The notes: generated from the letters alone by a model not told the origin. A stretch of DNA of 64,000 bases from a virus (IMGVR_UViG_3300043434_000734:96001-160000); one strand, 5' to 3'. Positions 31,283 through 59,870 are shown, numbered from the stretch's first letter. A program made the numbers and translations.

Positions 31283-33301
31283 ATGTCTGTAGATTTTTTT
31301 GAAGAAGGACCAACCACAAATCCTAAAAAAGTAAGAAAAGGGTCTAACACCCCAATTCTTGATAATTTTTCTCGTGACCTTATTAAAATGGCCGAGGAAG
31401 GTAAAATTGACCCTGTTGTTGGTAGGGACAAGGAGGTAAAAAGAATTGCTCAGATTCTTTCTCGAAAAAAGAAAAATAATGCCGTAATTGTTGGTGATGC
31501 TGGTGTTGGTAAATCAGCATTGGTTGAAAAATTAGCAATTATGATTTATAAAGGTGAATGTCCATCTAATTTGTTAGATAAAAGAGTTATGTCTCTTGAT
31601 TTAACTTCATTAGTTGCGGGTACAAAATACCGAGGTCAATTTGAGGAAAGAATTAAAGCAATTTTAAATGAATTACAAGAAAATCCAAATGTAATTGTTT
31701 TCATCGATGAATTACATACAATGGTGGGTGCGGGTAATGCAAGTGGTGCAATGGATGCGGCTAATATCCTTAAACCCGCCTTAGCTCGTGGAGAAATTCA
31801 ATGTATCGGTGCAACCACATTTGACGAATTTAAAAAACACATTGAAAAAGATGCCGCGTTAGTTAGACGTTTTCAAAAGGTGATATTAAAAGAACCAACA
31901 CAAGAAGAGACAGTTGAAATCTTACGTAATTTACAAGAATCATATCAAGAGTATCATAAAGTATCATATGATGAGGGTGTTATTGAATCGATAGTAAAAC
32001 TTTCACATCGTTATATTACGGATAGACAATTTCCTGATAAGGCAATTGATGTATTAGACGAATTAGGTTCAGAAAAACGAGTATCGAGTCGAACACCTGA
32101 ATCGATTGAAAAATTAAAACGTGAAGTTGACGAAATTAAGGAGAAAAAAATACAAGTCGTAAAAAATCAAAATTATGAACAAGCGGCAAAACTTCGTGAT
32201 GAAGAAAAGAAAGTAATTACCAAACTTGAAGATGAAAAATTAAAATGGGTCGATAAACAAAAGAATAATAAAACACCTGTTAGTGTCAGTGATGTTTACG
32301 ATATCATTTCTGATATGACAGGGGTACCTATTACAAAATTAGACACTAAAGAAACTCAAAAGTTATTGAAATTAGAGTCTATTTTATCTACTAAAGTTAT
32401 CGGTCAAAATGAAGCAATCACTTCTATTTCAAAATCAATTAGAAGAAATCGAGTTGGTATAAAAGACGGTAATAAACCAATTGGTTCATTTATCTTCATT
32501 GGTTCTACCGGTGTTGGTAAAACATTTTTAGCGAAATCAATTGCGGATATTTTATTTGGGGATTCAGAAAAAATTATTCGTGTAGATATGAGTGAATTTA
32601 TGGAGAAACATAATGTATCTAAATTGATTGGTTCCCCTCCAGGTTATGTTGGTTATGACGAGGGAGGACAATTAACTGAAAAAGTTAAAAACAATCCATT
32701 TTCAGTAATTTTATTTGACGAGATTGAAAAGGCACATAAAGACGTTTTCAATTTATTATTACAAATTTTAGATGAGGGTCATTTGACTGATTCGTTTGGT
32801 AGAAAAGTAAACTTTACCAATACAATCATTATTATGACATCTAATATTGGGGCAAAACGAGTTTCCGAATTTGGGGGAGGAGTTGGATTCTCAACTTCAT
32901 CAAGCGAACAACAAAAGTATGAAGTCAAAAAAACGATGATTCAGAAATCATTAAAACAACAATTTAATCCTGAATTTTTAAATCGTATTGATGATGTTAT
33001 TTTGTTTAATTCGTTAGATACTGAAACACTTAAAAAAATAATCACAATTGAAATGAGTAAACTAAATTCTCGTTTAATTGACAAGAATTATAAAATTACC
33101 TTTGATAAAACAGTTATTAATAGAATATTCGAATTGAATAGTCAAGAAGAATATGGGGCTCGTCCACTTAAACGAATTATCCAAAATCTTTGCGAAGACT
33201 TTTTAAGTGAAGAAATATTAAAAGGTAATATTGTTGAAAATCAACTATATACCATCAAATATAAAAACGACGAATTAACGATTATTAAAAATTCTAAGTA
33301 G
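31283..33301 (+). CDS. clpC: ClpC-type AAA+ unfoldase lacking the N-terminal Clp-repeat domain
   Basis: Two NBDs (GDAGVGKS, GSTGVGKT), UVR-like M domain, VGF ClpP-docking loop; TATGTTTG promoter at 31253. Confidence 0.88.
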   Translation: MSVDFFEEGPTTNPKKVRKGSNTPILDNFSRDLIKMAEEGKIDPVVGRDKEVKRIAQILSRKKKNNAVIVGDAGVGKSALVEKLAIMIYKGECPSNLLDKRVMSLDLTSLVAGTKYRGQFEERIKAILNELQENPNVIVFIDELHTMVGAGNASGAMDAANILKPALARGEIQCIGATTFDEFKKHIEKDAALVRRFQKVILKEPTQEETVEILRNLQESYQEYHKVSYDEGVIESIVKLSHRYITDRQFPDKAIDVLDELGSEKRVSSRTPESIEKLKREVDEIKEKKIQVVKNQNYEQAAKLRDEEKKVITKLEDEKLKWVDKQKNNKTPVSVSDVYDIISDMTGVPITKLDTKETQKLLKLESILSTKVIGQNEAITSISKSIRRNRVGIKDGNKPIGSFIFIGSTGVGKTFLAKSIADILFGDSEKIIRVDMSEFMEKHNVSKLIGSPPGYVGYDEGGQLTEKVKNNPFSVILFDEIEKAHKDVFNLLLQILDEGHLTDSFGRKVNFTNTIIIMTSNIGAKRVSEFGGGVGFSTSSSEQQKYEVKKTMIQKSLKQQFNPEFLNRIDDVILFNSLDTETLKKIITIEMSKLNSRLIDKNYKITFDKTVINRIFELNSQEEYGARPLKRIIQNLCEDFLSEEILKGNIVENQLYTIKYKNDELTIIKNSK

Positions 33302-46535: not shown

Positions 46536-47318
46536 ATGAGTAATTTTAAACATCTTACCGAATTGGAAATCCAACAAATGACATTTGATTGGAGATATAG
46601 AGGTTTCACAGTTTTGGAACTTTTAACCGAAGAAGAATGTGATGAAATAAATGATGAATTGGAAGGATTACGTCAAGCACGTATCGGTACGACTACCGAA
46701 GACGGTAAAGCTTGGGGTGAGTGGGACCCATTCGCATATCCACACAAACTATCTGATAAATTAGCAAAATTATACGTTCACCCTAAACTTATTGAGGCTT
46801 GTGAGTTTTTGATGGAAGGTGAAATCGTAGGTATGCAAAGTTGGGCATATTTTAAACCACCTGGACAATTGGGTAGAGATCAACACCAAAACGCATTTTA
46901 TACTGGATGTAAACATAATGAAATTATCAATACCGCGTTAGCTTTAGATAATCACGACGAGGGTAATGGTGCGGTTTGGAACTATGAGGGTTCACACAGA
47001 TTACCGACATTACCTATTGAGGTGGATGAAGAAAGAACGAAAACGAATCCATCGTTTTGGAGAAATGAAAGAGGTAAACCTTGTATTATGCCCGAAGGAC
47101 ACGATTTCCGTAAAGTGGAAGGTATTTTGAAAAAAGGACAAGTCGTTTTACTTCACTCACACTGTGTACACGGTTCCGAAGCTAACAATTCAAATAGAAT
47201 GAGAAGAAACTATTTGGGTGGATTTTTAAAGAAAGGGGCTTATTACAATCAAGGAAGTCATATGAAACGTGAACCAATTGACGTTTATGAATTAAGAGAT
47301 AAACATTGGGGGAAATAA
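46536..47318 (+). CDS. PhyH-family 2OG-Fe(II) dioxygenase
   Basis: YFKPPG..HQNAFY, GSHRLP, HCVHGSEANNSNRMRR. Confidence 0.85.
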   Translation: MSNFKHLTELEIQQMTFDWRYRGFTVLELLTEEECDEINDELEGLRQARIGTTTEDGKAWGEWDPFAYPHKLSDKLAKLYVHPKLIEACEFLMEGEIVGMQSWAYFKPPGQLGRDQHQNAFYTGCKHNEIINTALALDNHDEGNGAVWNYEGSHRLPTLPIEVDEERTKTNPSFWRNERGKPCIMPEGHDFRKVEGILKKGQVVLLHSHCVHGSEANNSNRMRRNYLGGFLKKGAYYNQGSHMKREPIDVYELRDKHWGK

Positions 47319-47321
47319 ACT

Positions 47322-47708
47322 ATGAAAAAACCAAATGTCATAAACGTTCACGAATGTCCTGAATGTAAAGTACCCAAAGGATGGGGTGAAGAAATTATTA
47401 TTTGCAATCACGAATTATATTGTGGTAAATTAATGTGTTTCAAAAAGGGTGCAATGTTTTCAATGCACTACCATATGATTAAAGATGAGACTTGGTACGT
47501 AAACGAGGGTGAATTTTTATATCGATGGATTGATACTGAGACAGCAGTGGTAAACGAACAACATTTAAAAGTAGGTGATGTTGTGAGACAACTACCAGGA
47601 CAACCTCATCAATTAGAGGCATTAACTGACGGTGTGGTTTTTGAAGTTTCCACGGAACACTTTGATTCTGACTCATATAGAGTTTGGAAAGGAGATTCAC
47701 AAAAATAA
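47322..47708 (+). CDS. Cupin-domain protein
   Basis: KGWGEE, SMHYHMIKDETWYV, PGQPHQLEA, EVST.HFDSDSYR. Confidence 0.85.
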   Translation: MKKPNVINVHECPECKVPKGWGEEIIICNHELYCGKLMCFKKGAMFSMHYHMIKDETWYVNEGEFLYRWIDTETAVVNEQHLKVGDVVRQLPGQPHQLEALTDGVVFEVSTEHFDSDSYRVWKGDSQK

Positions 47709-47748
47709 AATATATTTAACTTTTCTTGATTATATACATATTTATATG

Positions 47749-47756
47749 TATCTTTG
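47749..47756 (+). promoter_or_regulatory. Bacteroidota-type -7 element TATCTTTG
   Basis: TAnnTTTG upstream of leader peptide 1. Confidence 0.75.
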
Positions 47757-47786
47757 TAAAAAGAAACAAACATTAATAAAAATTCA

Positions 47787-47885
47787 ATGAGACAATTTAC
47801 ACATACAATGTCGTTTACAATCTGTTCAAAATGGGCGGATGAAACTCGTATGTCCAATAGTCTCAGAGATATTAATCACGGTTAA
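47787..47885 (+). CDS. Putative attenuator leader peptide 1 (MRQFTHTMSFTICSKWADETRMSNSLRDINHG)
   Basis: A-rich start; carries an 8-nt complement of the downstream terminator arm. Confidence 0.65.
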   Translation: MRQFTHTMSFTICSKWADETRMSNSLRDINHG

Positions 47886-47911
47886 ATGTAAGTTTAACTA
47901 ATAGAATTAAG

Positions 47912-47945
47912 AAACCCTGAGACTTCAAAATCTCAGGGTTTTTTG
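47912..47945 (+). terminator. Terminator/attenuator directly before tRNA-Ala
   Basis: aaaccctgaga-cttcaaaa-tctcagggttt plus T-tract. Confidence 0.9.
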
Positions 47946-47950
47946 TTTAT

Positions 47951-48023
47951 GGGCCTGATGTCAACGGCAGACCATCTGATTTGCAATCAGAATGAATGGG
48001 TTCGATTCCCACAGCGTCCACCA
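47951..48023 (+). tRNA. tRNA-Ala(TGC), bulged acceptor stem, encoded CCA
   Basis: tctga-tttgcaa-tcaga; G3:U70. Confidence 0.8.
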
Positions 48024-48026
48024 AAT

Positions 48027-48099
48027 TGGAATGTAGCTCAATGGTGAGAGCATCCGCCTGATACGCGGAAGGTTATAAGTTCGAGTCTTATCATTCCAA
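48027..48099 (+). tRNA. tRNA-Ile(GAT)
   Basis: tccgc-ctgatac-gcgga; full cloverleaf. Confidence 0.95.
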
Positions 48100-48104
48100 C
48101 ATTG

Positions 48105-48177
48105 GGAACTTTGGTATAGCCGGTGCGTACGTTGGACTGAAAATCCGAAGGAACAAGTTCGATTCTTGTAGGTTCCA
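48105..48177 (+). tRNA. tRNA-Phe(GAA)
   Basis: ttgga-ctgaaaa-tccga. Confidence 0.9.
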
Positions 48178-48240
48178 CAAATAAAGTAAAATTTGAACGA
48201 TAAAGTTAATCACTTTATTAAACAGAAATAACTTTATTAT

Positions 48241-48314
48241 GACCTCTTAGCTCAGTTGGTTAGAGCACCTCACTTTTAATGAGGGAGTCCCGCGTTCGAG
48301 TCGCGGAGGGGTCA
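48241..48314 (+). tRNA. tRNA-Lys(TTT)
   Basis: cctca-cttttaa-tgagg. Confidence 0.95.
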
Positions 48315-48319
48315 CACAC

Positions 48320-48392
48320 ACGGGTATGGTGAAAATGGTTATCATTTTAGTCTCCAAAACTAAAGTTCCTGATTCGAGTTCAGGTATCCGTG
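48320..48392 (+). tRNA. tRNA-Trp(CCA)
   Basis: ttagt-ctccaaa-actaa. Confidence 0.92.
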
Positions 48393-48453
48393 CAAATGTT
48401 CGATTTTTTTAGTCCGTTTCGAACTTTCGTGATATTTATAAATAAAGAACATT

Positions 48454-48993
48454 ATGAAAGAAGAAATATTAAAATTAAGAAATGAAGGTAAAACATTTAA
48501 CCAAATAAAAGAAATAATAAAATGTTCTAAATCTACAATTTCATATTATTGTAGTGAAGGGCAAAAAGAAAAAACAAAAATTAGAACTAAAAAGAGGAGA
48601 GAAAACATTATAATTGATAAATTAGAAAGATTTAAATATAGAAAATCTAAATCGAATAAAGAACGAATTAGAAAATTCAATAAAAGAGATAATCAAATGG
48701 ATGGATTAGTTAACAAAAAAATAGAAATTACATTCACATTTGAAGATGTTATCAAGAAGTTTGGTTATAGTACTGTTTGTTATCTTTCCGGAGAAAAAAT
48801 AAATTTAAATGAAAACACATACCATTTTGACCATATTTTACCATCAAGTAGAGGTGGTGATAACACATTAGAAAATTTAGGTGTTACACACGAAATTGTA
48901 AATAAAATGAAAGGGGACTTAACACCAAAGGAACTTATTCTTTGGTGTGAAAAAATTTTGAAATATAATGGATATGATGTAAATAAAATTTAA
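48454..48993 (+). mobile_element. HNH homing endonuclease with N-terminal HTH
   Basis: CYLSG...HFDHILPSSRGG.NTLENL...VNKMK. Confidence 0.88.
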
Positions 48994-49039
48994 TATTATG
49001 AAAAAAGAATTCGATATGCATTAGTTAAACTAATCGCAT

Positions 49040-49243
49040 ATGACAAACAAAGAGTACAGAGTAAAGAGAATGAAACAATCACACGATTATTGTTTCATAT
49101 GTCAGAAGAGAAATGGAAGTTGGTATTATGATTGCTCCCCAACTTTTGTTCACGGAAGACACGGTAATGGGAAACCGATTGAATCTCATAAAAGAAGAGA
49201 GTATAGAAGTTGGAAGTACAACAGAAAAACTCAATGGAAGTAA
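49040..49243 (+). CDS. Small basic hypothetical protein
   Basis: 67 aa with CxxC. Confidence 0.55.
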   Translation: MTNKEYRVKRMKQSHDYCFICQKRNGSWYYDCSPTFVHGRHGNGKPIESHKRREYRSWKYNRKTQWK

Positions 49244-49272
49244 TGTTTACTATTAACAGTAAACAGTAAACG

Positions 49273-49344
49273 GGTCTCTTGGTGTAACGGATAGCACGAA
49301 ACACTACGGATGTTTTAGTAAGGGTTCAAATCCTTTAGAGACCT
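49273..49344 (+). tRNA. tRNA-Arg(ACG)
   Basis: aaaca-ctacgga-tgttt. Confidence 0.92.
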
Positions 49345-49405
49345 CAATGTTCACAAATTTTTAATGTTCACGTTCCGTGAACAAACAAAAAAAGTGAACA
49401 AAAAA

Positions 49406-49476
49406 GTCAGGTTGGCCGAGCGGCTAGGTGAAGGTCTGCAAAACCTTTAAGATAGGTTCGACTCCTATACTTGACT
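49406..49476 (+). tRNA. tRNA-Cys(GCA)
   Basis: aaggt-ctgcaaa-acctt; U73. Confidence 0.93.
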
Positions 49477-49481
49477 CTTAT

Positions 49482-49553
49482 GGTGTTTGAAGCTTTAAGG
49501 TGAAGCACGAGTTTGTGGAGCTCGGGAAGACGGTTCGATACCGTTCATACACC
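49482..49553 (+). tRNA. tRNA-His(GTG)
   Basis: cgagt-ttgtgga-gctcg; G-1:C73. Confidence 0.92.
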
Positions 49554-49558
49554 CATAT

Positions 49559-49629
49559 TGCGGGGAGGAAGGTTCCCGACCAGTCTCATAAGCTGTGTCT
49601 CCCGAGTTCGATTCTCGGCCCCGCAACCA
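49559..49629 (+). tRNA. Atypical tRNA-Met(CAT): initiator-like acceptor, short D-arm
   Basis: tgcgggg/ccccgca-acca; ctcataa loop. Confidence 0.7.
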
Positions 49630-49680
49630 AAAAGTTTTAAAAATAATTTGAAATAATTTCGGATATTCGTATTTATTTCT

Positions 49681-49688
49681 TACATTTG
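49681..49688 (+). promoter_or_regulatory. Bacteroidota-type -7 element TACATTTG
   Basis: Same tacatttgtaaaacaataa context as 56016. Confidence 0.75.
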
Positions 49689-49709
49689 TAAAACAATAAT
49701 GACAGAAAA

Positions 49710-49838
49710 ATGGCGAAAGCACCGAGAACATCGAAAAGAGTTGGTAAAGTGGCAAGTAAAGCATTAAGAAGTAAAAAAAGTAGCAAGACAACAAAAACTC
49801 TTGCGGGAAGTTCTTTGAGACAACGGAGAAAAAAGTAA
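49710..49838 (+). CDS. 42-aa highly basic peptide (MAKAPRTSKRVGKVASKALRS...)
   Basis: Below the ORF-track cutoff; promoter and A-rich start upstream. Confidence 0.65.
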   Translation: MAKAPRTSKRVGKVASKALRSKKSSKTTKTLAGSSLRQRRKK

Positions 49839-49843
49839 AATAA

Positions 49844-49915
49844 GCCTCTTAAGCATTGCAGGCGATGCGCCAGATTTGTAATCTGGATAACTCGGTTCGA
49901 TTCCGGGCGGAGGCT
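49844..49915 (+). tRNA. tRNA-Thr(TGT)
   Basis: ccaga-tttgtaa-tctgg. Confidence 0.9.
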
Positions 49916-49916
49916 C

Positions 49917-50375
49917 AACAAGTGACGACTGTGGTGTAACCCCACGGTATATAAATCCCAAAGAACTGTCTTGATTCGCGATATCAGAGCAGTGAGGGTA
50001 GAGTTTACTATAAGCGGGGAGTAATTAACCCAATGCGAAAATGTAACCACCAAGTGTAGAGATATATTTGGTTATGATGTACAGAAGGGTACAAAAAACT
50101 TGTTAATTTATTAATTTAGATTCTGATAACTTATAACTAAAGTTTTACTTAAACAAAGGTTATGGAGCAATTTGAGAAATGTTGTTATCACTAAGAATGT
50201 AAATTAATAAAGTTTGATTACGTTAGGTATGTAGTTTAAAAAGAACAATGTCCTAATAGATGAAGGTGTGAGTAATCACCTTACTTAACGTAATTTAAAT
50301 TTAAAACTAACTCAACGAGGACTTTGTTAACCAGAGCAAGACTTGGATGGTGCAACTTAAGGTGAGTTAGAATTT
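49917..50375 (+). ncRNA. Putative ~460-nt structured RNA of unknown class
   Basis: No + strand ORF; helices 50217-27/50284-94, 50263-68/50277-82, 50307-14/50363-70. Confidence 0.5.
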
Positions 50376-50376
50376 T

Positions 50377-50448
50377 GGTCCTGTAGTTAATCGGCTATAA
50401 TATTGCCCTGTCACGGCAAAGTGCCGGGTTCGATTCCCGGTGGGACCG
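50377..50448 (+). tRNA. tRNA-Asp(GTC)
   Basis: ttgcc-ctgtcac-ggcaa. Confidence 0.93.
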
Positions 50449-50672
50449 CAATGAGTAAGAGATACTCAATAGTCTTTAATCCAAGACTCATTTAACAATG
50501 GATGGTGGTTTGTAGTATCAACCTTAACGACTGCATATTGGGAACAAGGATTGTGGACCTACTCTCCCCCAAGTATTAGGTTGACGTTTTAACAGAGGGA
50601 TGCCTCGCAGGTTTTTGAGACAGACAAAAAACCGAAGTAACTACTCATCAGGAATCTCAAGGTGGGGAAAAT

Positions 50673-50760
50673 GGAGAGATGGTAGAGTTGGTCTATTGCA
50701 CCTGACTTGAAATCAGGAGTACTCGTGAGGGTACCGTGGGTTCGAATCCTACTCTCTCCG
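50673..50760 (+). tRNA. tRNA-Ser(TGA)
   Basis: cctga-cttgaaa-tcagg; long variable arm. Confidence 0.95.
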
Positions 50761-50876
50761 CTGTAGAGTTTGCCCGTGGTAACGGTCTGATAAGATACTT
50801 TCAGACTTCTCGCGTCAAAACCCAAAACACTGACCTACTGGTGCTTGGGCTAAATGTAGAAAAAAAACGGGATATT

Positions 50877-50964
50877 GGAGAGATGGCAGAGTTGGTCGAT
50901 TGCGTCAGACTTGAAATCTGAAGAACGGGAAACTGTTCCGTGGGTTCGAATCCTACTCTCTCCG
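50877..50964 (+). tRNA. tRNA-Ser(TGA), second copy
   Basis: tcaga-cttgaaa-tctga; long variable arm. Confidence 0.95.
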
Positions 50965-51063
50965 CGAACCAAAAGTCCAATGGGGAGGATCCACTACACG
51001 ATTAGCAATCGGAAGAGTAGATTAAGACTAAGGTTGCTTGACACTCCGGAAAGACGAGAAAAC

Positions 51064-51202
51064 AATCAAGTAGAGTGGTGGTACACTCACTATGTATGCA
51101 TCGTAAGATGGACGCCTTCTTCCCGCAGAGCACATAGATATGTCGTTTAGTGATATGGAAGAACACGGGAACGATTTGTAGGTTCGAATCCTATCTTGAT
51201 TG
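51064..51202 (+). ncRNA. Oversized tRNA-like RNA 1 (139 nt)
   Basis: Perfect 7-bp acceptor, D-arm and T-arm; 38-nt anticodon loop; 40-nt variable region. Confidence 0.7.
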
Positions 51203-51317
51203 CCTTTCCTTTCAGGGTAACGACCTGATAAATTTTGAGATACTAAAGTTGTAACACCAGGGACTCAACGAAAGAAAGTCGGAAACTAAACTTGACTGAT
51301 GGAAAGACATCAAATTT

Positions 51318-51447
51318 GGGAAGGTAGCAGAAATGGAAGATGCGTTATACGAAAGCTACGTATAAGACGCGATGACGGACACAAAAGTACAATGTGTTGA
51401 ACTAAAGATTACGCATCGTTATGGGTTCGATTCCCACTCCTGTCCCA
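51318..51447 (+). ncRNA. Oversized tRNA-like RNA 2 (130 nt)
   Basis: Bulged acceptor, D-arm, 7-bp anticodon-like stem, 55-nt variable domain, T-arm. Confidence 0.6.
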
Positions 51448-51648
51448 CAGGTCGTCTTTTTATATTGCTCAGTTTGTGGAGTTAACTTTAGAGACGTTAA
51501 ACTTAAAGTAATGAATCCAAGCCCTTTTAAAGTTGTGGTACAACTGGGTCCATTTCCTTACCGAAGGAGGTTTCCGGACCTAAAATAGAAGCCTCAAACG
51601 ACTGAAAAAAGTAGGGACATATGAGACTACCTAATCTCGTCCCGAAAT

Positions 51649-51720
51649 GGCCCTATCGACAAGCGGTTAAGTCACGTCCCTTTCACGGATGAGTCACGGG
51701 TTCGAATCCCGTTGGGGCTA
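51649..51720 (+). tRNA. tRNA-Glu(TTC)
   Basis: cgtcc-ctttcac-ggatg. Confidence 0.95.
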
Positions 51721-51735
51721 CTAAATGGTTTTACT

Positions 51736-51894: not shown

Positions 51895-51948
51895 AAAATA
51901 TTTACTATTAAATTGAATTTTTATATATTTGTATATACTTATTAAGAA

Positions 51949-52053
51949 ATGAAGAACATAAATAACATATTGTCACTTAGTACTAGACCATTAAATAATG
52001 GTAACGGGTATGGTGTGCAACCCGTGAATTTATGTTCGGATACTCATATTTAG
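51949..52053 (+). CDS. Putative attenuator leader peptide 2 (MKNINNILSLSTRPLNNGNGYGVQPVNLCSDTHI)
   Basis: TATATTTG promoter at 51924; tgttcgg complementary to the terminator 5' arm. Confidence 0.55.
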   Translation: MKNINNILSLSTRPLNNGNGYGVQPVNLCSDTHI

Positions 52054-52075
52054 AAATTTAATTAATTAAAATATA

Positions 52076-52111
52076 GACCCGAACGACTTAAAAAATTGTT
52101 CGGGTTTTTTT
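52076..52111 (+). terminator. Terminator/attenuator before the second tRNA block
   Basis: gacccgaacga...ttgttcgggtt plus T-tract. Confidence 0.88.
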
Positions 52112-52142
52112 ATGTTATTTTTTTTCTTTATATTTGAAATGT

Positions 52143-52155
52143 AGTTCTTTGACAT
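52143..52155 (+). promoter_or_regulatory. boxA-like element AGTTCTTTGACAT
   Basis: Follows TATATTTG (52129-52136); similar copies at 49809, 56042, 59421. Confidence 0.6.
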
Positions 52156-52169
52156 TGTGGAAATGATTT

Positions 52170-52254
52170 GCTCGGGTGGTGTAATGGTAGCCACGAGGGA
52201 CTTAAAATCCCTTGGACAGAAACGTCCGTGCCGGTTCGAGTCCGGCCCCGAGTA
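52170..52254 (+). tRNA. tRNA-Leu(TAA)
   Basis: aggga-cttaaaa-tccct; long variable arm. Confidence 0.95.
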
Positions 52255-52369
52255 CAATGTAATGACTTAGAAATAAGTGACGGAACAGACGCTATGTATG
52301 AAATGGAAACGTTTGAAACATTTTAAAGATGTTGATTCGACACAAACCGTACAGACATTACATTAAATT

Positions 52370-52443
52370 GGTCCAATAGCTCAGCTGGATAGAGCAACTC
52401 TCTTCTAAAGAGTAGGTCTCAGGTTCGAATCCTGATTGGATCA
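52370..52443 (+). tRNA. tRNA-Arg(TCT)
   Basis: actct-cttctaa-agagt. Confidence 0.95.
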
Positions 52444-52588
52444 CGAAGATAATGGTTTTCACCACCTTACGGATGTCGACAATCCACGGTGGAATCTGAA
52501 AACAGCACCCTCTGCCGAGCGCTCGTAAAACTACGATTAAGCAGTTAAGATTGGAACGAGACGGGTATTCCAACATTATCTTTATTTT

Positions 52589-52661
52589 AGAGTAGTTGAC
52601 CAATCGGTAGGTCCCTTGCTTTGGGAGCAAGTGTGTGTAGGTTCGAGTCCTGTCTACTCTA
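52589..52661 (+). tRNA. tRNA-Pro(TGG)
   Basis: cttgc-tttggga-gcaag. Confidence 0.9.
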
Positions 52662-52668
52662 CAAAAAC

Positions 52669-52740
52669 GTTGGTATAGCTTAATGGTGAAGCATTCGGCT
52701 GTTAACCGAAAGACTGTAGGTTCGAGCCCTACTACCAACG
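52669..52740 (+). tRNA. tRNA-Asn(GTT)
   Basis: ttcgg-ctgttaa-ccgaa. Confidence 0.95.
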
Positions 52741-52747
52741 CAAAAAT

Positions 52748-52824
52748 ACCCGTATGGCGGAATTGGCATACGCGTCAGATTTAGGATCTGAATTTTGTAG
52801 GTTCGAGTCCTACTATGGGTACCA
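52748..52824 (+). tRNA. tRNA-Leu(TAG), short variable loop, encoded CCA
   Basis: tcaga-tttagga-tctga. Confidence 0.88.
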
Positions 52825-52870
52825 GGGATTGGTTGACACTAAACAACAAAACCAAAAGGAAGTGTAAAAT

Positions 52871-52954
52871 TGGAGGATGGGTGAGTGGCTAAAACCGGCA
52901 GACTGTAAATCTGCTCTCAGAACGGGTACGGGGGTTCGAATCCCTCTCCTCCAA
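52871..52954 (+). tRNA. tRNA-Tyr(GTA)
   Basis: gcaga-ctgtaaa-tctgc. Confidence 0.95.
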
Positions 52955-52968
52955 CAAAAACAAAAACT

Positions 52969-53616
52969 ATGGCAACATTAGAAACACAGTACAAGAATTA
53001 CTTAAAGTTGAATCCAGATTCAACATTCACATTTGAAGAATGGAAAGAAGATTTCGGTGGTAACGTGCTTAGACAAATGTCCGATATCTTAAAAGAAATC
53101 AAAACTCCTGAATATAAAGAAAGACGTATTAAGGAACACGAAGAACGTCTTAAAAATATTACAATGGATTATCAATTGGGACAATACGTTGGTGAGTACA
53201 TTGTAAGTCACAATCTTCCAACATTATCGACCGATATGATTCACTCTAATCGTGTGATTAAAGTGTCTGACGAAGAACAAACTGAATGTGAAAGATTGGA
53301 TGGTGAATATGTTAAATCATTGGAAGCCAATCAATGGAAAAATGGTGATAGTGAATTATTTGAAGCGTGGAAACAATATCGTAAGGTATTGGAAAAGAAA
53401 TATCTTCCACAAGTTTTAGAGTGTCATCTTAGTTTAATAAGAATTGATGACATAGTAAAATTTAAAGAAGGTTTATCTGATTGTCTTTGGAATTGTGATA
53501 TGTGTTCTTATGACATCAAAGAAGAAAACATCACAATTGAAAATGATTTACTTAACGGATTTACAATTATCAAATTTCAATATGATTCGAGTTGTAATGA
53601 TGAAATGAAAAAATAA
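52969..53616 (+). CDS. Hypothetical protein inside the tRNA array
   Basis: 215-aa ORF with A-rich start. Confidence 0.8.
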   Translation: MATLETQYKNYLKLNPDSTFTFEEWKEDFGGNVLRQMSDILKEIKTPEYKERRIKEHEERLKNITMDYQLGQYVGEYIVSHNLPTLSTDMIHSNRVIKVSDEEQTECERLDGEYVKSLEANQWKNGDSELFEAWKQYRKVLEKKYLPQVLECHLSLIRIDDIVKFKEGLSDCLWNCDMCSYDIKEENITIENDLLNGFTIIKFQYDSSCNDEMKK

Positions 53617-53667
53617 AATATCGTTTAAATATACGATATACGATTTTATCGTCTTAATAAACGATAT

Positions 53668-53741
53668 GGACTTGTAGCTCAGTAGGTTAGAGCAACTGAC
53701 TCATAATCAGTAGGTCCCTGGTTCGAGCCCAGGCTGGTCCA
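53668..53741 (+). tRNA. tRNA(CAT), elongator Met or Ile2 (lysidine)
   Basis: actga-ctcataa-tcagt. Confidence 0.9.
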
Positions 53742-53802
53742 CAAAGAGATTAGGATATTCCTTACCCGTCGCCTCGGGATGACATCGTCAGTCTCTTTAC
53801 AT

Positions 53803-53877
53803 AGAAGATTAGTTCAGTCGGTTCAGAGCATCTGTTTTACACACAGAAAGTCGGGGGTTCGAATCCCTCATCTTCTA
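53803..53877 (+). tRNA. tRNA-Val(TAC)
   Basis: tctgt-tttacac-acaga. Confidence 0.93.
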
Positions 53878-53946
53878 CAAAAAAATTGGGATTGGGTTAA
53901 TACTGATATGGAGGCAATTCCTGGTATTATCGCCGCCCAATTAAAT

Positions 53947-54022
53947 GCGAAAGTAGCTCAGTCGGTAGAGCACAACCTTGCCAAGGTTGGGGTCGCGAGT
54001 TCGAATCTCGTCTTTCGCTCCA
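53947..54022 (+). tRNA. tRNA-Gly(GCC), encoded CCA
   Basis: caacc-ttgccaa-ggttg. Confidence 0.96.
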
Positions 54023-54025
54023 TAT

Positions 54026-54098
54026 GCGAATATAGCTCAATTGGTAGAGCACTAGTTTTCCAAACTGGGGGTTGCAGGATCGTTCCCTGTTATTCGCT
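54026..54098 (+). tRNA. tRNA-Gly(TCC), atypical T-loop ATCGTTC
   Basis: ctagt-tttccaa-actgg. Confidence 0.88.
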
Positions 54099-54192
54099 CA
54101 ACTCAAGTACCCATACCGCTAACGATGGGCTAAGTAAGATACAAATTCGTACCACATTATTGTGGAGGCGGGAAGTAGAATGCTTGAGACAC

Positions 54193-54263
54193 TGTCCTTT
54201 GGTGTAACGGTAACACAATCGTTTTTGGTGCGATTATTTTAGGTTCGAATCCTAAAGGGACAA
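54193..54263 (+). tRNA. tRNA-Gln(TTG)
   Basis: atcgt-ttttggt-gcgat. Confidence 0.88.
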
Positions 54264-54278
54264 CTTAAATTTTTAAGT

Positions 54279-54509
54279 ATGAGTATTTTTGCAATTTACT
54301 ACGTAATATGTATTGCGTATTGTTTCTATCAATTAAATAAAAAATATAGAAACAGAGGTGTTGATTATGGAACATCACCAGAGTTAGATTCCATAATGGT
54401 TTTGGTTATGGCTTGGATTTTAGTGCCAATTGATGTGTCGATAACTTGGATACGAATGGTGAAAGAAGCAGAGGAGTCTAAAAGAAGACAAGAGAAACAA
54501 GTACTTTAA
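54279..54509 (+). CDS. Small 2-TM membrane protein
   Basis: Two hydrophobic segments. Confidence 0.7.
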   Translation: MSIFAIYYVICIAYCFYQLNKKYRNRGVDYGTSPELDSIMVLVMAWILVPIDVSITWIRMVKEAEESKRRQEKQVL

Positions 54510-54570
54510 CTAGTGGGCCACGGTGGTAGGCCAAAAGAAAAATAGATGTTTTTCATCCACCAAATTTTAT

Positions 54571-54656
54571 AGAGAGTTACCCAAGTTGGTGAAGGGGCCT
54601 GTTTGCTAAACAGGTAGGATGTTAAAGTCGCAAGGGTTCGAGCCCCTTACTCTCTA
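54571..54656 (+). tRNA. tRNA-Ser(GCT)
   Basis: cctgt-ttgctaa-acagg; variable arm. Confidence 0.9.
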
Positions 54657-54661
54657 CACAT

Positions 54662-56063: not shown

Positions 56064-56870
56064 GGCCGCCTATGGTCGATTAAAATAAACCACGAAAGTG
56101 GGATAAAGTGACGAGTCCTTGGTTGGGACAAGTTGCGGTTTCAGTAATGGAACTTGAGTAGGCAAGTGGAGTATCGTTGAACCTTAAGTACTGAGGGTAA
56201 CACTTTAGGGAAAGTGGTTTGATGACTGAGCAATCCGAGTTGTTTGGTTGAGGTGGGAACACCAATAAGAATAATCCATAGAGTTATTGTGAGAAATATG
56301 GTTATCCGACTATATGATTACGTGATTCAATATGATGGGAATCTTAAAACCGAAAGGTATGGTGAAGTACGAGTGGTGTCGTTATCATCCTTTATTAAAC
56401 TCTACCAAGGGTTTAGTTTTGAAGGGGTCCAAAAATATGGTAGCAGGGATGTTACAGAGAGTAGTTTAGTATCGAGTCGCTCAAAAGGTGGCTTGGCTAG
56501 GTGACGAACCACTACTTTCCAAATTCGGATAACTAAATTTTGTTAATTTTGGTTTAACAACTTAAAATCATACAAGAAAAAGTGTTCGTCAGTCGTTGTA
56601 GACAGGTGGCTACATAGTCGTGAGGGGTTCACGGCCACAAAGGGTCTCAAGCCCAATGTGATTTTTAAAAAAGTTCTCTAAACCCGCAAGGTTGAATCAG
56701 GGAGGCATCTTTGATGAGTAATGAGTATTAAAAGAGTATATAACGACTCAAGGATTGGTTAATCTAATTGACCGCCGCTGATTGGTACTACTCAAAAGGT
56801 AGTGGATATGGGAAGAATCAAATAATGTCCCTAAGTCAATCAAAAAATGGTGTAATCTCAGCCCTTTCTT
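56064..56870 (+). ncRNA. ~800-nt structured RNA, GOLLD-like candidate
   Basis: GC-enriched, no credible ORF, many hairpins, long-range 5'/3' pairing, next to tRNAs. Confidence 0.65.
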
Positions 56871-56943: not shown

Positions 56944-56970
56944 TAGTCAGGAGAAATTCTGACTTTTTTT
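56944..56970 (+). terminator. Intrinsic terminator
   Basis: agtcag-gagaaatt-ctgact plus T-tract. Confidence 0.85.
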
Positions 56971-59134: not shown

Positions 59135-59347
59135 ATGAAAAAAATTATCGAACTTATTAAGAAACTTTTGGGTAAAGGTACTATGGCGGAAAAGTCAGTA
59201 GTATTGAATGAACTTCAGGTTGAGGTAAAACAAGACATTGAATTGATTCAAGAAGTTGTTAAGGAAGTTAAAGCTAAAAAGGCTAAAGCACCGAAAACAT
59301 CGGCAGAACCAAAAGCACCAAAAGCTAAGAAAACAGTTAAGAAATAA
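59135..59347 (+). CDS. Small protein with Lys/Ala/Pro-rich tail
   Basis: KAKKAKAPKTSAEPKAPKAKK. Confidence 0.7.
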   Translation: MKKIIELIKKLLGKGTMAEKSVVLNELQVEVKQDIELIQEVVKEVKAKKAKAPKTSAEPKAPKAKKTVKK

Positions 59348-59371: not shown

Positions 59372-59403
59372 GAGGGTTAAAATTAGTTTTTTAACCCTTT
59401 TTT
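59372..59403 (+). terminator. Intrinsic terminator
   Basis: agggttaaa...tttaaccct plus T-tract. Confidence 0.8.
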
Positions 59404-59406
59404 GTT

Positions 59407-59433
59407 TACCTTTGTTTTATAGTTCTTTAACAT
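59407..59433 (+). promoter_or_regulatory. -7 element TACCTTTG plus boxA-like AGTTCTTTAACAT before tmRNA
   Basis: Direct sequence match. Confidence 0.7.
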
Positions 59434-59435
59434 AT

Positions 59436-59836
59436 GGGGATGTCTGGTATTGATTTCAGGTATCAGGGATAAATGGCACGTAGTCAGAATTCATCTATGA
59501 CTTAAATCCACGGTGAAACATTTTAGACGGCAACGTTTACAACAATATGGAAATTGCAGGTTTACTTGCAACTTCTAAAGTAGCGGCCTAACCAAGTTAG
59601 CACTACACTCGGGTCGATGTACATATAACCTAGGAACAGAAGTACTTAAGGTGTGATACCACCTAAGAGTGTCAAAGGTCTCGTTCAGAGGGCTACCTTA
59701 AAGTGAACTCGACACAGTTATAGGGAACGATGTTAAAATAGGAACCTTTTATTTGTCTGTTGTGAACTAACAGAATAAACGTGTAGTCATTTATTGTTGA
59801 ACAGGAAAGACACGGGTTCGACTCCCGTCATCTCCA
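59436..59836 (+). ncRNA. ssrA: tmRNA; tag GNVYNNMEIAGLLATSKVAA* (59529-59591)
   Basis: ggggatg/catctcc-a acceptor with G3:U70, T-arm acggg-ttcgact-cccgt, tag ending VAA. Confidence 0.93.
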
Positions 59837-59839
59837 CAT

Positions 59840-59870
59840 AAAAAAACCCACCTAAATGGTGGGTTTTTTA
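59840..59870. terminator. Bidirectional terminator after tmRNA
   Basis: aaaaaacccacc-taaat-ggtgggtttttt. Confidence 0.88.

What the first reader, a model, noticed from the sequence alone, without database searches (positions are those of the whole stretch)
47749..47951. Leader-peptide attenuator gating a phage tRNA array
Seen in order: host-type promoter TATCTTTG; a 32-codon uORF (47787-47885); a strong terminator (11-bp stem, U-tract) ending ~5 nt before tRNA-Ala. agtctcag (47859-66, inside the uORF) is the exact complement of the terminator 5' arm ctgagact (47917-24). Known: this is the geometry of classical ribosome-mediated attenuation. A ribosome reaching the stop masks the antiterminator and transcription ends; a stalled or absent ribosome permits read-through. 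The uORF uses mixed codons rather than a run of one amino acid. Inference: the phage makes its tRNAs when translation falters, for example after host anticodon-nuclease defence. I know of no described attenuator that controls phage tRNA genes.
Basis: partly seen in the sequence, partly recalled or inferred. Interest (0 to 1): 0.9.

Follow-up and report, generated by a model that had tools for sequence, protein, structure and literature searches.

The report
Codon-matched attenuator gating phage tRNA genes
A giant freshwater phage puts a tiny translated "test" gene and a switchable transcription stop directly in front of its tRNA genes; because the test gene is written in the codons those tRNAs read, the phage probably makes more of them only when ribosomes decode those codons slowly.

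Summary
The promoter-like TATCTTTG, the 32-codon ORF, the 11-14 bp terminator ending 6 nt before a weak tRNA(UGC), and the exact 8-nt complementarity are all at the stated coordinates.

The element is conserved. I found 53 distinct homologues in uncultured phage and freshwater contigs, and wherever enough downstream DNA was held, each sits in front of the first tRNA of an array. All keep the ATG and a 30-34 codon frame, and indels inside the frame are multiples of three. Both the terminator and the rival pairing (leader segment with terminator 5' arm) stay paired through double changes.

New here: the "mixed" codons are not arbitrary. In the window, 16 of 20 leader codons upstream of the switch are read by the tRNAs that follow. 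A second unit (51924-52112) is written in the codons of the next tRNA block (Fisher p = 1e-5). A variant leader type sits before a different tRNA set and matches that set.

My best reading is a trp-type leader-peptide attenuator that senses decoding by the tRNAs it controls (confidence about 0.7). Nothing has been shown experimentally.

I found no published account. This scan has noted the same logic before on other DNA, including homologous copies.

The parts
47721..47756 (+). Promoter-like block: TTTTCTTG (-33-like, TTG at 47726-47728), a 20-nt spacer, then TATCTTTG (-7-like, 47749-47756), which fits the Bacteroidota consensus TAnnTTTG.
   Evidence: Read directly. The block is conserved in most homologues, while the flanks and the 5' UTR vary. 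The consensus itself is recalled from the literature. The motif is not enriched in the window overall.
47763..47786 (+). A-rich, unstructured 5' leader ahead of the start codon, without a Shine-Dalgarno sequence.
   Evidence: The sequence varies between homologues but is always A-rich, and it is left unpaired or only weakly paired in the folds.
47787..47885 (+). Leader ORF of 32 codons plus TAA.
   Evidence: The frame is open at 30-34 codons in all 54 aligned sequences. The ATG is present in every true homologue. The stop codon sits at nearly the same place even though the C-terminal sequences are unrelated. Gap runs inside the ORF are 3, 3 and 6 nt.
47788..47793 (+). Segment 1 (UGAGAC), which overlaps the start codon and pairs with segment 2 in the terminating conformation.
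   Evidence: It is paired in the minimum-free-energy folds and in the RNAalifold consensus. The pairing holds in 99.5% of cells but is invariant, so there is no covariation.
47790..47849 (+). Sensing zone, codons 2-21. A ribosome stalled here leaves segment 2 free.
   Evidence: 16 of 20 codons are read, under strict wobble, by the tRNAs encoded between unit 1 and unit 2 (p=0.0095 against sliding windows of the phage's own genes). Only 3 of 20 are read by the tRNAs after unit 2.
47859..47866 (+). Segment 2 (AGUCUCAG), in codons 25-27. It can pair either with segment 1 or with segment 3.
47880..47899 (+). Small hairpin that holds the stop codon in its 5' arm.
   Evidence: By my reading of the alignment, the haplotypes form different hairpins at the same place, and each contains the stop codon. 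I did not run a formal pair count on it.
47912..47945 (+). Intrinsic terminator: 5' arm 47912-47922, loop 47923-47930, 3' arm 47931-47941, T-run to 47945. Segment 3 (CUGAGACU) is 47917-47924.
   Evidence: 99.8-100% of cells are paired across 53 distinct sequences, and two pairs show double changes.
47951..48020 (+). First tRNA of the array, anticodon UGC (Ala), with a weak acceptor stem and T stem.
   Evidence: Rfam tRNA at 32 bits against a gathering score of 29, with the alignment shown. ARAGORN misses it. The same odd tRNA is conserved in most homologues.
48027..51721 (+). tRNA block A behind unit 1: Ile, Phe, Lys, Trp, Arg(ACG), Cys, His, Thr, Asp, Ser(UGA) x2, Glu. An HNH endonuclease ORF (48454-48993) lies inside it.
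   Evidence: There is no strong + strand terminator inside the block.
51924..52112 (+). Unit 2, the same design in a different sequence. It has TATATTTG (51924-51931), a 34-codon ORF (51949-52053) and segment 2 UGUUCGG (52033-52039). Its terminator is at 52075-52107, with the T-run reaching about 52112.
   Evidence: It is conserved in 18 distinct relatives with ORFs of 34-36 codons. 17 of 24 zone codons are read by block B tRNAs (p=0.0064) and 2 of 24 by block A.
52170..54657 (+). tRNA block B behind unit 2: Leu(UAA), Arg(UCU), Pro, Asn, Leu(UAG), Tyr, Met, Val, Gly x2, Gln, Ser(GCU).

Best explanation
This is a ribosome-mediated (leader-peptide) transcription attenuator that controls a block of phage tRNA genes. 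The regulatory codons of its leader are the codons read by those tRNAs.

Proposed sequence of events:

1. Transcription starts a few nucleotides after TATCTTTG, and a ribosome loads on the A-rich leader.
2. If decoding is fast, the ribosome runs through segment 2 (47859-47866) and reaches the stop at 47883 while RNA polymerase is making the terminator. Segment 2 is then covered or crowded, the terminator (47912-47945) folds, and transcription ends 6 nt before the first tRNA.
3. If the ribosome stalls in codons 2-21 because a cognate charged tRNA is scarce, segment 2 is free. It pairs with the terminator's 5' arm (47917-47924), the terminator cannot form in time, and polymerase reads into the tRNA block.
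4. Without any ribosome, segment 2 pairs with UGAGAC at the start codon, and the terminator forms.

The net effect is negative feedback: the phage makes a tRNA set when codons served by that set are read slowly.

What is shown by sequence and comparison: the parts, their conservation, the two mutually exclusive pairings, and the match between leader codons and downstream tRNAs. What is inferred: translation of the ORF, coupling between ribosome and polymerase, the direction of the response, and the physiological trigger.
For: 1. Conservation and placement. There are 53 distinct homologues from two differently anchored pattern searches. Every one with enough downstream DNA is followed by the first tRNA of an array. 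The gap is 6-8 nt in most and 54-84 nt in a few. The first tRNA may be Ala, Pro or Trp.

2. The ORF is maintained.
- The ATG is present in every true homologue; all loci that lacked it were unrelated chance hits.
- The length is 30-34 codons in all 54 sequences, even though the C-terminal sequences are unrelated.
- Gap runs inside the ORF are 3, 3 and 6 nt. Outside the ORF only 7 of 23 gap runs are multiples of three.

3. The switch.
- The terminator is 99.8-100% paired, with two pairs showing double changes.
- The antiterminator is 94-95% paired, against less than 50% in slid controls.
- In the antiterminator, pair 109:165 is GC 29, AU 12, GU 12 and never broken. Pair 110:164 is AU 26, GC 21, GU 2, with 4 broken.

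4. Energetics. Full-length RNA forms the terminator in 34 of 34 variants. Nascent RNA with the start region masked forms the antiterminator in 34 of 34. Without a mask the two states lie within a few kcal/mol of each other.

5. Codon match.
- Unit 1 zone: 16 of 20 codons are read by block A tRNAs (p=0.0095) and 3 of 20 by block B.
- Unit 2 zone: 17 of 24 are read by block B (p=0.0064) and 2 of 24 by block A. Fisher p=1e-5.
- The variant leader (core NQPNWNEQP) is always followed by an array that begins with tRNA-Pro, mostly Pro-Asn-Trp-Leu-Gln. 11-12 of its 19 zone codons are read by those tRNAs, and none of about 8000 windows from the phage's genes reaches that.
- Among the residues at which the two leader types differ, those specific to the type I and type II tRNA sets split 8:0 against 1:9 (p=4e-4).
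- Within the variant type, each leader fits its own tRNA set better than permuted sets (136 against 128.1 +/- 2.4, p=0.001).

6. The only two strong + strand terminators inside the 7-kb tRNA array are these two units.

7. No room for a promoter. Only 5 nt lie between the T-run and the tRNA. The tmRNA gene, by contrast, has a terminator followed by its own TACCTTTG.
Against: - No experiment or transcript mapping supports this. Metatranscriptome contigs were uninformative.
- Variability is equal at the three codon positions (0.34, 0.32, 0.30 bits). Translation therefore cannot be inferred from synonymous change, and much of the ORF is conserved at the nucleotide level.
- The antiterminator has only 7-8 bp and is about 12.6 kcal/mol weaker than the terminator state (-35.7 against -48.3). 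It could act only kinetically.
- The covarying states are partly linked to neighbouring haplotypes, so independent events are few. 4 of 53 sequences break the terminal pair.
- The pairing of segment 1 with segment 2 is invariant and therefore untested by covariation.
- A ribosome at the stop codon reaches only the edge of segment 2, which ends 16 nt before the stop. Masking is plausible but not certain.
- A few homologues carry 45-84 nt between the terminator and the first tRNA. About half of the unit 2 copies have a TATATTTG in the roughly 55-nt spacer. Extra promoters could therefore bypass the switch there.
- Over the whole ORF rather than the zone, the unit 1 codon match is weak (19 of 31, p=0.086).
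- The host is unknown, as is whether transcription and translation are coupled in it.
Confidence: 0.7

Rival explanations
1. This is a small peptide gene, or a small RNA gene, with its own promoter and an ordinary terminator that happens to sit at the head of the tRNA array. On this view the tRNAs are made by constitutive leaky read-through or from other promoters, and nothing is sensed.
For: - The ORF and terminator form a complete transcription unit of about 180 nt.
- The ORF region folds well on its own (z=-3.4) and is conserved at all codon positions, as a structured RNA would be.
- Some relatives have spacers that could hold promoters.
Against: - It does not explain why the leader carries a copy of the terminator's 3' arm that changes together with the 5' arm.
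- It does not explain why an unrelated-sequence unit 2 has the same layout.
- It does not explain why leader codon content tracks the downstream tRNA set in three leader classes.
- In the window, only 5 nt separate the T-run from the first tRNA.
Confidence: 0.15
2. The RNA switch is real but is set by something other than the ribosome. Candidates are a phage or host RNA-binding protein, or direct binding of uncharged tRNA to the leader in a T-box-like or riboswitch-like way. On this view the open frame is incidental.
For: - Two mutually exclusive helices are supported.
- Nucleotide-level conservation is strong, and there is a conserved inner hairpin region in the ORF.
Against: - No Rfam family matches the leader, even at relaxed thresholds; the only hits are terminator-driven and below threshold.
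- The ATG, the frame, the 3n indels and the stop position are all maintained.
- The match is at the level of many different codons, which suits decoding by a ribosome rather than a single specifier.
Confidence: 0.1
3. The geometry is a chance resemblance. The terminator simply insulates the tRNA array from upstream transcription, and the 8-nt complementarity has no function.
Against: The element is conserved in 53 distinct homologues with pairing kept through double changes, and a second unit and the codon-tRNA match exist.
Confidence: 0.03

Closest known systems
Leader-peptide transcription attenuators of amino-acid operons (trpL, hisL, leuL, thrL, pheL; multivalent ilvL of ilvGMEDA)
   Same: It has a promoter-proximal short ORF, an intrinsic terminator before the regulated genes, and four segments with 1:2, 2:3 and 3:4 alternatives. 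The regulatory codons sit upstream of segment 2, and the untranslated state is predicted to terminate. As in ilvL and thrL, more than one kind of codon is sensed.
   Different: - The regulated genes are tRNA genes, not biosynthetic enzymes.
- The leader has no run of one codon. Instead it samples about a dozen different codons, one or two for each downstream tRNA.
- Segment 1 overlaps the start codon.
- Segment 2 lies upstream of the stop codon rather than just after it.
- The element is phage-borne, in a putative Bacteroidota host, with no Shine-Dalgarno sequence.
- No Rfam leader family reaches its threshold.
pheST (phenylalanyl-tRNA synthetase) attenuator and T-box leaders of Gram-positive aminoacyl-tRNA synthetase genes
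   Same: These are also transcription attenuation systems that tie expression of a translation component to the supply of charged tRNA.
   Different: - pheST senses one amino acid through Phe codons.
- T-boxes bind uncharged tRNA directly, without a ribosome, and have a specifier loop and a T-box sequence. I did not search for those motifs; no Rfam family, T-box included, matched the leader.
- Neither system controls tRNA genes.
Phage tRNA gene clusters (T4, T5, KVP40 and other large phages)
   Same: It is a large array of tRNA genes in a T4-like phage (gp23, gp20 and terminase), interspersed with homing-endonuclease-type ORFs.
   Different: From memory, the described clusters are transcribed from ordinary phage promoters. 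I found no paper describing a leader-peptide attenuator in front of them.

Membership tests
Ribosome-mediated (leader-peptide) transcription attenuator | A short ORF with a start codon lies in the transcribed leader, between the promoter and the regulated genes. | tested here: met
   The ORF is at 47787-47885. The ATG and a 30-34 codon frame are kept in all 54 sequences, and indels in the ORF are multiples of three. Translation itself is not shown.
Ribosome-mediated (leader-peptide) transcription attenuator | An intrinsic terminator lies immediately upstream of the regulated genes. | tested here: met
   The stem is 11-14 bp plus a T-run at 47912-47945, and the tRNA starts at 47951. The stem is supported by covariation.
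Ribosome-mediated (leader-peptide) transcription attenuator | An antiterminator helix uses the terminator's 5' arm and a segment inside or next to the ORF, and excludes the terminator. | tested here: met
   47859-47866 pairs with 47917-47924. The helix is 94-95% paired across homologues with double changes at two pairs, while slid controls stay below 50%. It forms in 34 of 34 variants when the start region is masked. The independent events are few.
Ribosome-mediated (leader-peptide) transcription attenuator | An upstream partner (segment 1) ties up segment 2 when the leader is not translated. | tested here: inconclusive
   UGAGAC (47788-47793) pairs with GUCUCA in the folds and in the consensus. 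The pairing is invariant, so there is no covariation. In 21 of 34 variants the nascent minimum-free-energy fold prefers the 2:3 pairing even without a mask.
Ribosome-mediated (leader-peptide) transcription attenuator | The regulatory codons in the leader correspond to what the operon supplies. | tested here: met
   Zone codons match the downstream tRNAs in unit 1, in unit 2 and in the variant leader type. The form is unusual: many different codons rather than a run of one.
Ribosome-mediated (leader-peptide) transcription attenuator | Read-through rises when the cognate charged tRNA is limiting and depends on translation of the leader. | not testable with these tools
   This needs transcript mapping or reporters. 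RNA-run contigs gave no usable ends.
T-box riboswitch | A specifier loop, a conserved T-box sequence and a stem I platform that bind tRNA. | tested here: not met
   No T-box or other Rfam family matches 47700-48030, even at E up to 10; the only hits are terminator-driven and far below gathering scores.

The most novel reading that the evidence does not exclude
Large phages run each block of their tRNA genes under a 'codon checklist' attenuator. The short leader is written in one or two codons for each tRNA in the block, so the ribosome itself reports which part of the tRNA pool is short, and the phage replenishes only that part. Shortage could come from phage demand, from host tRNA decay or from anticodon-nuclease defence. 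This would be a modular homeostat for tRNA supply, and the first attenuator known to control tRNA genes.
Probability: 0.6. Interest if true: 0.9.

Novelty: new variant of a known kind. Interest (0 to 1): 0.85.

Why it matters
Why phages carry tRNA genes, and how those genes are used, is an open question. The proposed answers are codon-usage matching, compensation for host tRNA loss, and escape from anticodon nucleases.

A switch that turns a tRNA block on only when its own codons are read slowly would show that phage tRNA supply is demand-regulated. It would extend leader-peptide attenuation to a new class of genes and to a leader with many regulatory codons instead of a run of one.

It also gives a compact, testable sensor of decoding speed. 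The leader sequence alone would predict which tRNAs a cluster is meant to back up.

Tried and rejected
- Synteny through the upstream cupin gene led nowhere. 80 IMG/VR relatives of the 128-aa cupin (47322-47708) were fetched. None carries the element downstream, and only one of the 14 scanned had any tRNAs in the fetched DNA. The cupin is a mobile auxiliary gene and no guide to this element.
- Cultured phages: megablast found nothing, and blastn matched only tRNA genes. I therefore found no isolate that carries the element.
- The window's whole genome is not held.
- Rfam: no family for the leader at gathering or relaxed thresholds. The His_leader match (26.9 bits against 49) and the others are driven by the terminator.
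- Pfam: no hit for the 32-aa peptide.
- Codon-position test for coding: no third-position excess, so it neither supports nor excludes translation.
- Sequencing runs: DNA holders are freshwater and lake metagenomes. The RNA runs hold only small shares, laid as contigs. One freshwater metatranscriptome contig covers 47768-47856 of a relative, and another covers 47721-47793, which includes the promoter. These cannot show starts, ends or levels and may be DNA carry-over. They count neither for nor against.
- The built-in terminator scan reported the unit 1 hairpin only on the minus strand and missed unit 2, whose loop is 9 nt. I replaced it with my own scan.
- I considered a third unit in front of the tmRNA gene and rejected it. 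That terminator (59372-59399) ends a 70-aa gene and is followed by its own TACCTTTG promoter-like motif.
- Whole-ORF codon matching is weaker than zone matching. I report both.

Full report
**1. The observation**

- TATCTTTG lies at 47749-47756, with TTG 20 nt upstream.
- An A-rich stretch leads to ATG at 47787, and a 32-codon frame ends at TAA 47883-47885.
- A small hairpin (47880-47899) holds the stop codon.
- The terminator pairs AAACCCTGAGA (47912-47922) with TCTCAGGGTTT (47931-47941). The stem can be extended to 14 bp, and the T-run reaches 47945.
- A tRNA with anticodon UGC starts at 47951. Rfam scores it 32 bits against a gathering score of 29, with several non-standard pairs. ARAGORN does not call it.
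- AGTCTCAG (47859-47866) is the exact complement of CTGAGACT (47917-47924).

In dinucleotide shuffles of the ORF, such an 8-mer turns up in 1.1% of trials. The single sequence is suggestive but not decisive.

**2. Setting**

The window belongs to a T4-like phage: it carries the gp23 capsid, gp20 portal and T4-type terminase. It also carries 25 tRNA genes, a tmRNA and a GOLLD RNA. Near-identical DNA is held by freshwater and lake metagenomes. No whole genome is held, and no cultured phage shares the element.

The upstream cupin gene is common in uncultured phages, but none of its 80 fetched relatives carries the element downstream. The element belongs with the tRNA array, not with the cupin.

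**3. Homologues**

Three pattern scans recovered the element:
- one anchored on the terminator;
- one anchored on three short blocks inside the ORF;
- one anchored on the start region plus a T-run at the right distance.

Together they gave 53 distinct sequences besides chance hits (alignments A2 and A3). The loci that I rejected for lacking an ATG were all unrelated sequences. The ATG is therefore truly universal among the homologues.

Ascertainment fixes some letters. GTCTC, ATGTCC and TGTCGTTT are fixed in the first set, and the start region in the second. Invariance of those letters means nothing.

Every homologue with enough downstream DNA is followed by the first tRNA of an array. The gap is usually 6-8 nt. 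The first tRNA is the odd tRNA(UGC), a canonical tRNA-Ala, tRNA-Pro or tRNA-Trp.

**4. Is the frame kept?**

- All 54 sequences have an open frame of 30-34 codons from the same ATG.
- Five unrelated C-terminal haplotypes end within one codon of each other, always inside the 5' arm of a local hairpin.
- The three distinct gap runs inside the ORF are 3, 3 and 6 nt. Outside the ORF, 16 of 23 are not multiples of three.
- Against this, variability is the same at all three codon positions.

So the peptide sequence is not under ordinary protein selection. What is kept is the frame and the nucleotide sequence. That is what one expects of a leader whose translation matters but whose product does not. 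It is not proof of translation.

**5. The RNA switch**

The terminator is paired in 99.8-100% of cells, and two pairs change on both sides. The same two variable columns of the 5' arm also change together with two columns of segment 2 inside the ORF:
- pair 109:165 is GC 29, AU 12, GU 12 and never broken;
- pair 110:164 is AU 26, GC 21, GU 2, with 4 broken.

Overall 94-95% of cells are paired, against less than 50% when the partner is slid by one to three columns.

Caveat: the GA/UC state travels largely with one neighbouring haplotype. The number of independent events is therefore small, and four sequences carry a terminal mismatch.

Segment 2 can also pair with UGAGAC at the start codon. This pairing is in the minimum-free-energy fold and in the RNAalifold consensus, but it is invariant and so untested by covariation.

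Folding of 34 variants:
- full-length RNA forms the terminator in all of them;
- RNA ending just after segment 3 with the start region masked forms the antiterminator in all of them;
- without a mask, 13 prefer the 1:2 pairing (this window by 1.8 kcal/mol) and 21 prefer 2:3.

The forced antiterminator state of the full transcript is 12.6 kcal/mol weaker than the terminator state. The switch must therefore be kinetic, as in known attenuators.

**6. The leader codons mirror the tRNAs that follow**

A first-reader note on the same window pointed to a second unit at 51924-52112, which I checked.
- It has TATATTTG, a 34-codon ORF, a 12-bp terminator, and a copy of the terminator's 3' arm (UGUUCGG, 52033-52039) inside the ORF. 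A 10-bp segment 1:2 pairing lies near the start.
- It is conserved in 18 distinct relatives, with ORFs of 34-36 codons.
- These two units are the only strong + strand terminators inside the tRNA array.

I defined the sensing zone before counting: the codons far enough upstream of segment 2 that a stalled ribosome leaves it free.

| Leader zone | Read by block A tRNAs | Read by block B tRNAs |
|---|---|---|
| Unit 1, codons 2-21 | 16 of 20 (p=0.0095) | 3 of 20 |
| Unit 2, codons 2-25 | 2 of 24 | 17 of 24 (p=0.0064) |

Block A lies between the two units and block B lies after unit 2. The p-values are against all windows of equal length in 17 genes of the same phage. The 2x2 table gives Fisher p=1e-5. 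Over whole ORFs the signal is weaker (p=0.086 and 0.025).

Among the homologues of unit 1 there are two leader types.
- Thirty-eight carry the core ICSKWADER. They are mostly followed by Ala-Ile-Phe-Lys-Trp-Arg(ACG)-Cys-His; three have a variant order or lack Ala.
- Sixteen carry NQPNWNEQP or close variants. Their arrays all begin with tRNA-Pro, mostly Pro-Asn-Trp-Leu-Gln.
- Trp, the one residue shared by both cores, corresponds to the one tRNA shared by both sets.
- In the zone, 48% of type I codons and 61% of type II codons are read by their own first eight tRNAs. The figures for the other type's tRNAs are 22% and 11%. The background in the phage's genes is 25% for the first eight type I tRNAs and 18% for the first six type II tRNAs.
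- Among the residues at which the two types differ, those specific to the two tRNA sets split 8:0 and 1:9 (p=4e-4).
- Within type II, each leader matches its own tRNA set better than permuted sets (p=0.001). For example, the two leaders with a CGT codon are the two whose arrays include tRNA-Arg(ACG).

Linkage alone explains co-inheritance. It does not explain why the codons correspond to the anticodons.

**7. Mechanism**

The layout is that of trp-type attenuation, with two differences: segment 1 sits on the start codon, and segment 2 sits 16 nt before the stop.
- A ribosome that keeps pace with polymerase would be at the stop codon (47883) when polymerase is about 35 nt ahead, at segment 3. 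Its trailing edge then abuts segment 2, and the terminator folds.
- A ribosome held up in codons 2-21 leaves segment 2 free to capture segment 3 first.

Both of these steps are inferred from geometry and established knowledge of attenuation. None is shown here.

**8. Known or new**

No Rfam family covers the leader. Three full-text searches found no paper on attenuation of phage tRNA genes.

This scan has noted the same logic before in other genomes, including stretches that share words with this one. Those are unchecked AI notes, not support. I reached the codon match from my own tables before reading them (note).

**9. Verdict**

- the untranslated state probably terminates in this window;
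- the mixed codons are the regulatory codons.

It is a new variant of a known kind of control, and I rate its interest high.

Noticed in passing
window 56457-56864 (+): A full-length GOLLD RNA (Rfam RF02032, 314 bits against a gathering score of 150) lies between the tRNA array and the tmRNA gene. A hairpin terminator follows at 56945-56964.
   Followed up: partly
window 59436-59839 (+): A phage-encoded tmRNA (Rfam 83 bits; the ARAGORN tag peptide ends in AA). It is preceded by a terminator (59372-59399) that ends a 70-aa Lys-rich ORF (59135-59347), and by its own TACCTTTG motif (59407-59414). A strong terminator follows at 59841-59869.
   Followed up: partly
window 48454-48993 (+): An HNH endonuclease ORF with an N-terminal helix-turn-helix (Pfam HNH_4, 2.3e-9) sits inside tRNA block A, between tRNA-Trp and tRNA-Arg. 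Relatives differ in spacing at this point, which suggests a mobile insertion.
   Followed up: no
window 46536-47708 (+): A PhyH-type dioxygenase (46536-47318) and a cupin (47322-47708) lie just upstream of the leader. The cupin has at least 176 relatives in IMG/VR at 69-88% identity, in different neighbourhoods. In L001 a cytidylyltransferase-like ORF follows it.
   Followed up: partly
L081:3190-3300 (-), L086, L093, L099: In a few homologues 45-84 nt are inserted between the terminator and the first tRNA. In L081 the insert contains a GCCAAA...TTTGGC hairpin. I did not resolve whether it carries a promoter.
   Followed up: no
window 52113-52169 (+): Unlike unit 1, unit 2 is separated from tRNA-Leu(UAA) by about 55 nt. 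That spacer holds a TATATTTG (52129-52136) in the window and in about half of the relatives. It could be a bypass promoter.
   Followed up: partly
window 31283-33301 (+): A ClpB/ClpA-like double AAA+ protein of 672 aa is encoded by the phage. Its closest database matches, at about 50-54% identity, include uncultured megaphage records of more than 600 kb.
   Followed up: no
window 47880-47899 and the same place in homologues: The stop codon of the leader always lies in the 5' arm of a small hairpin, and the hairpin's sequence differs completely between haplotypes. Its role (a pause site, or a barrier to re-initiation) is unexplained.
   Followed up: partly
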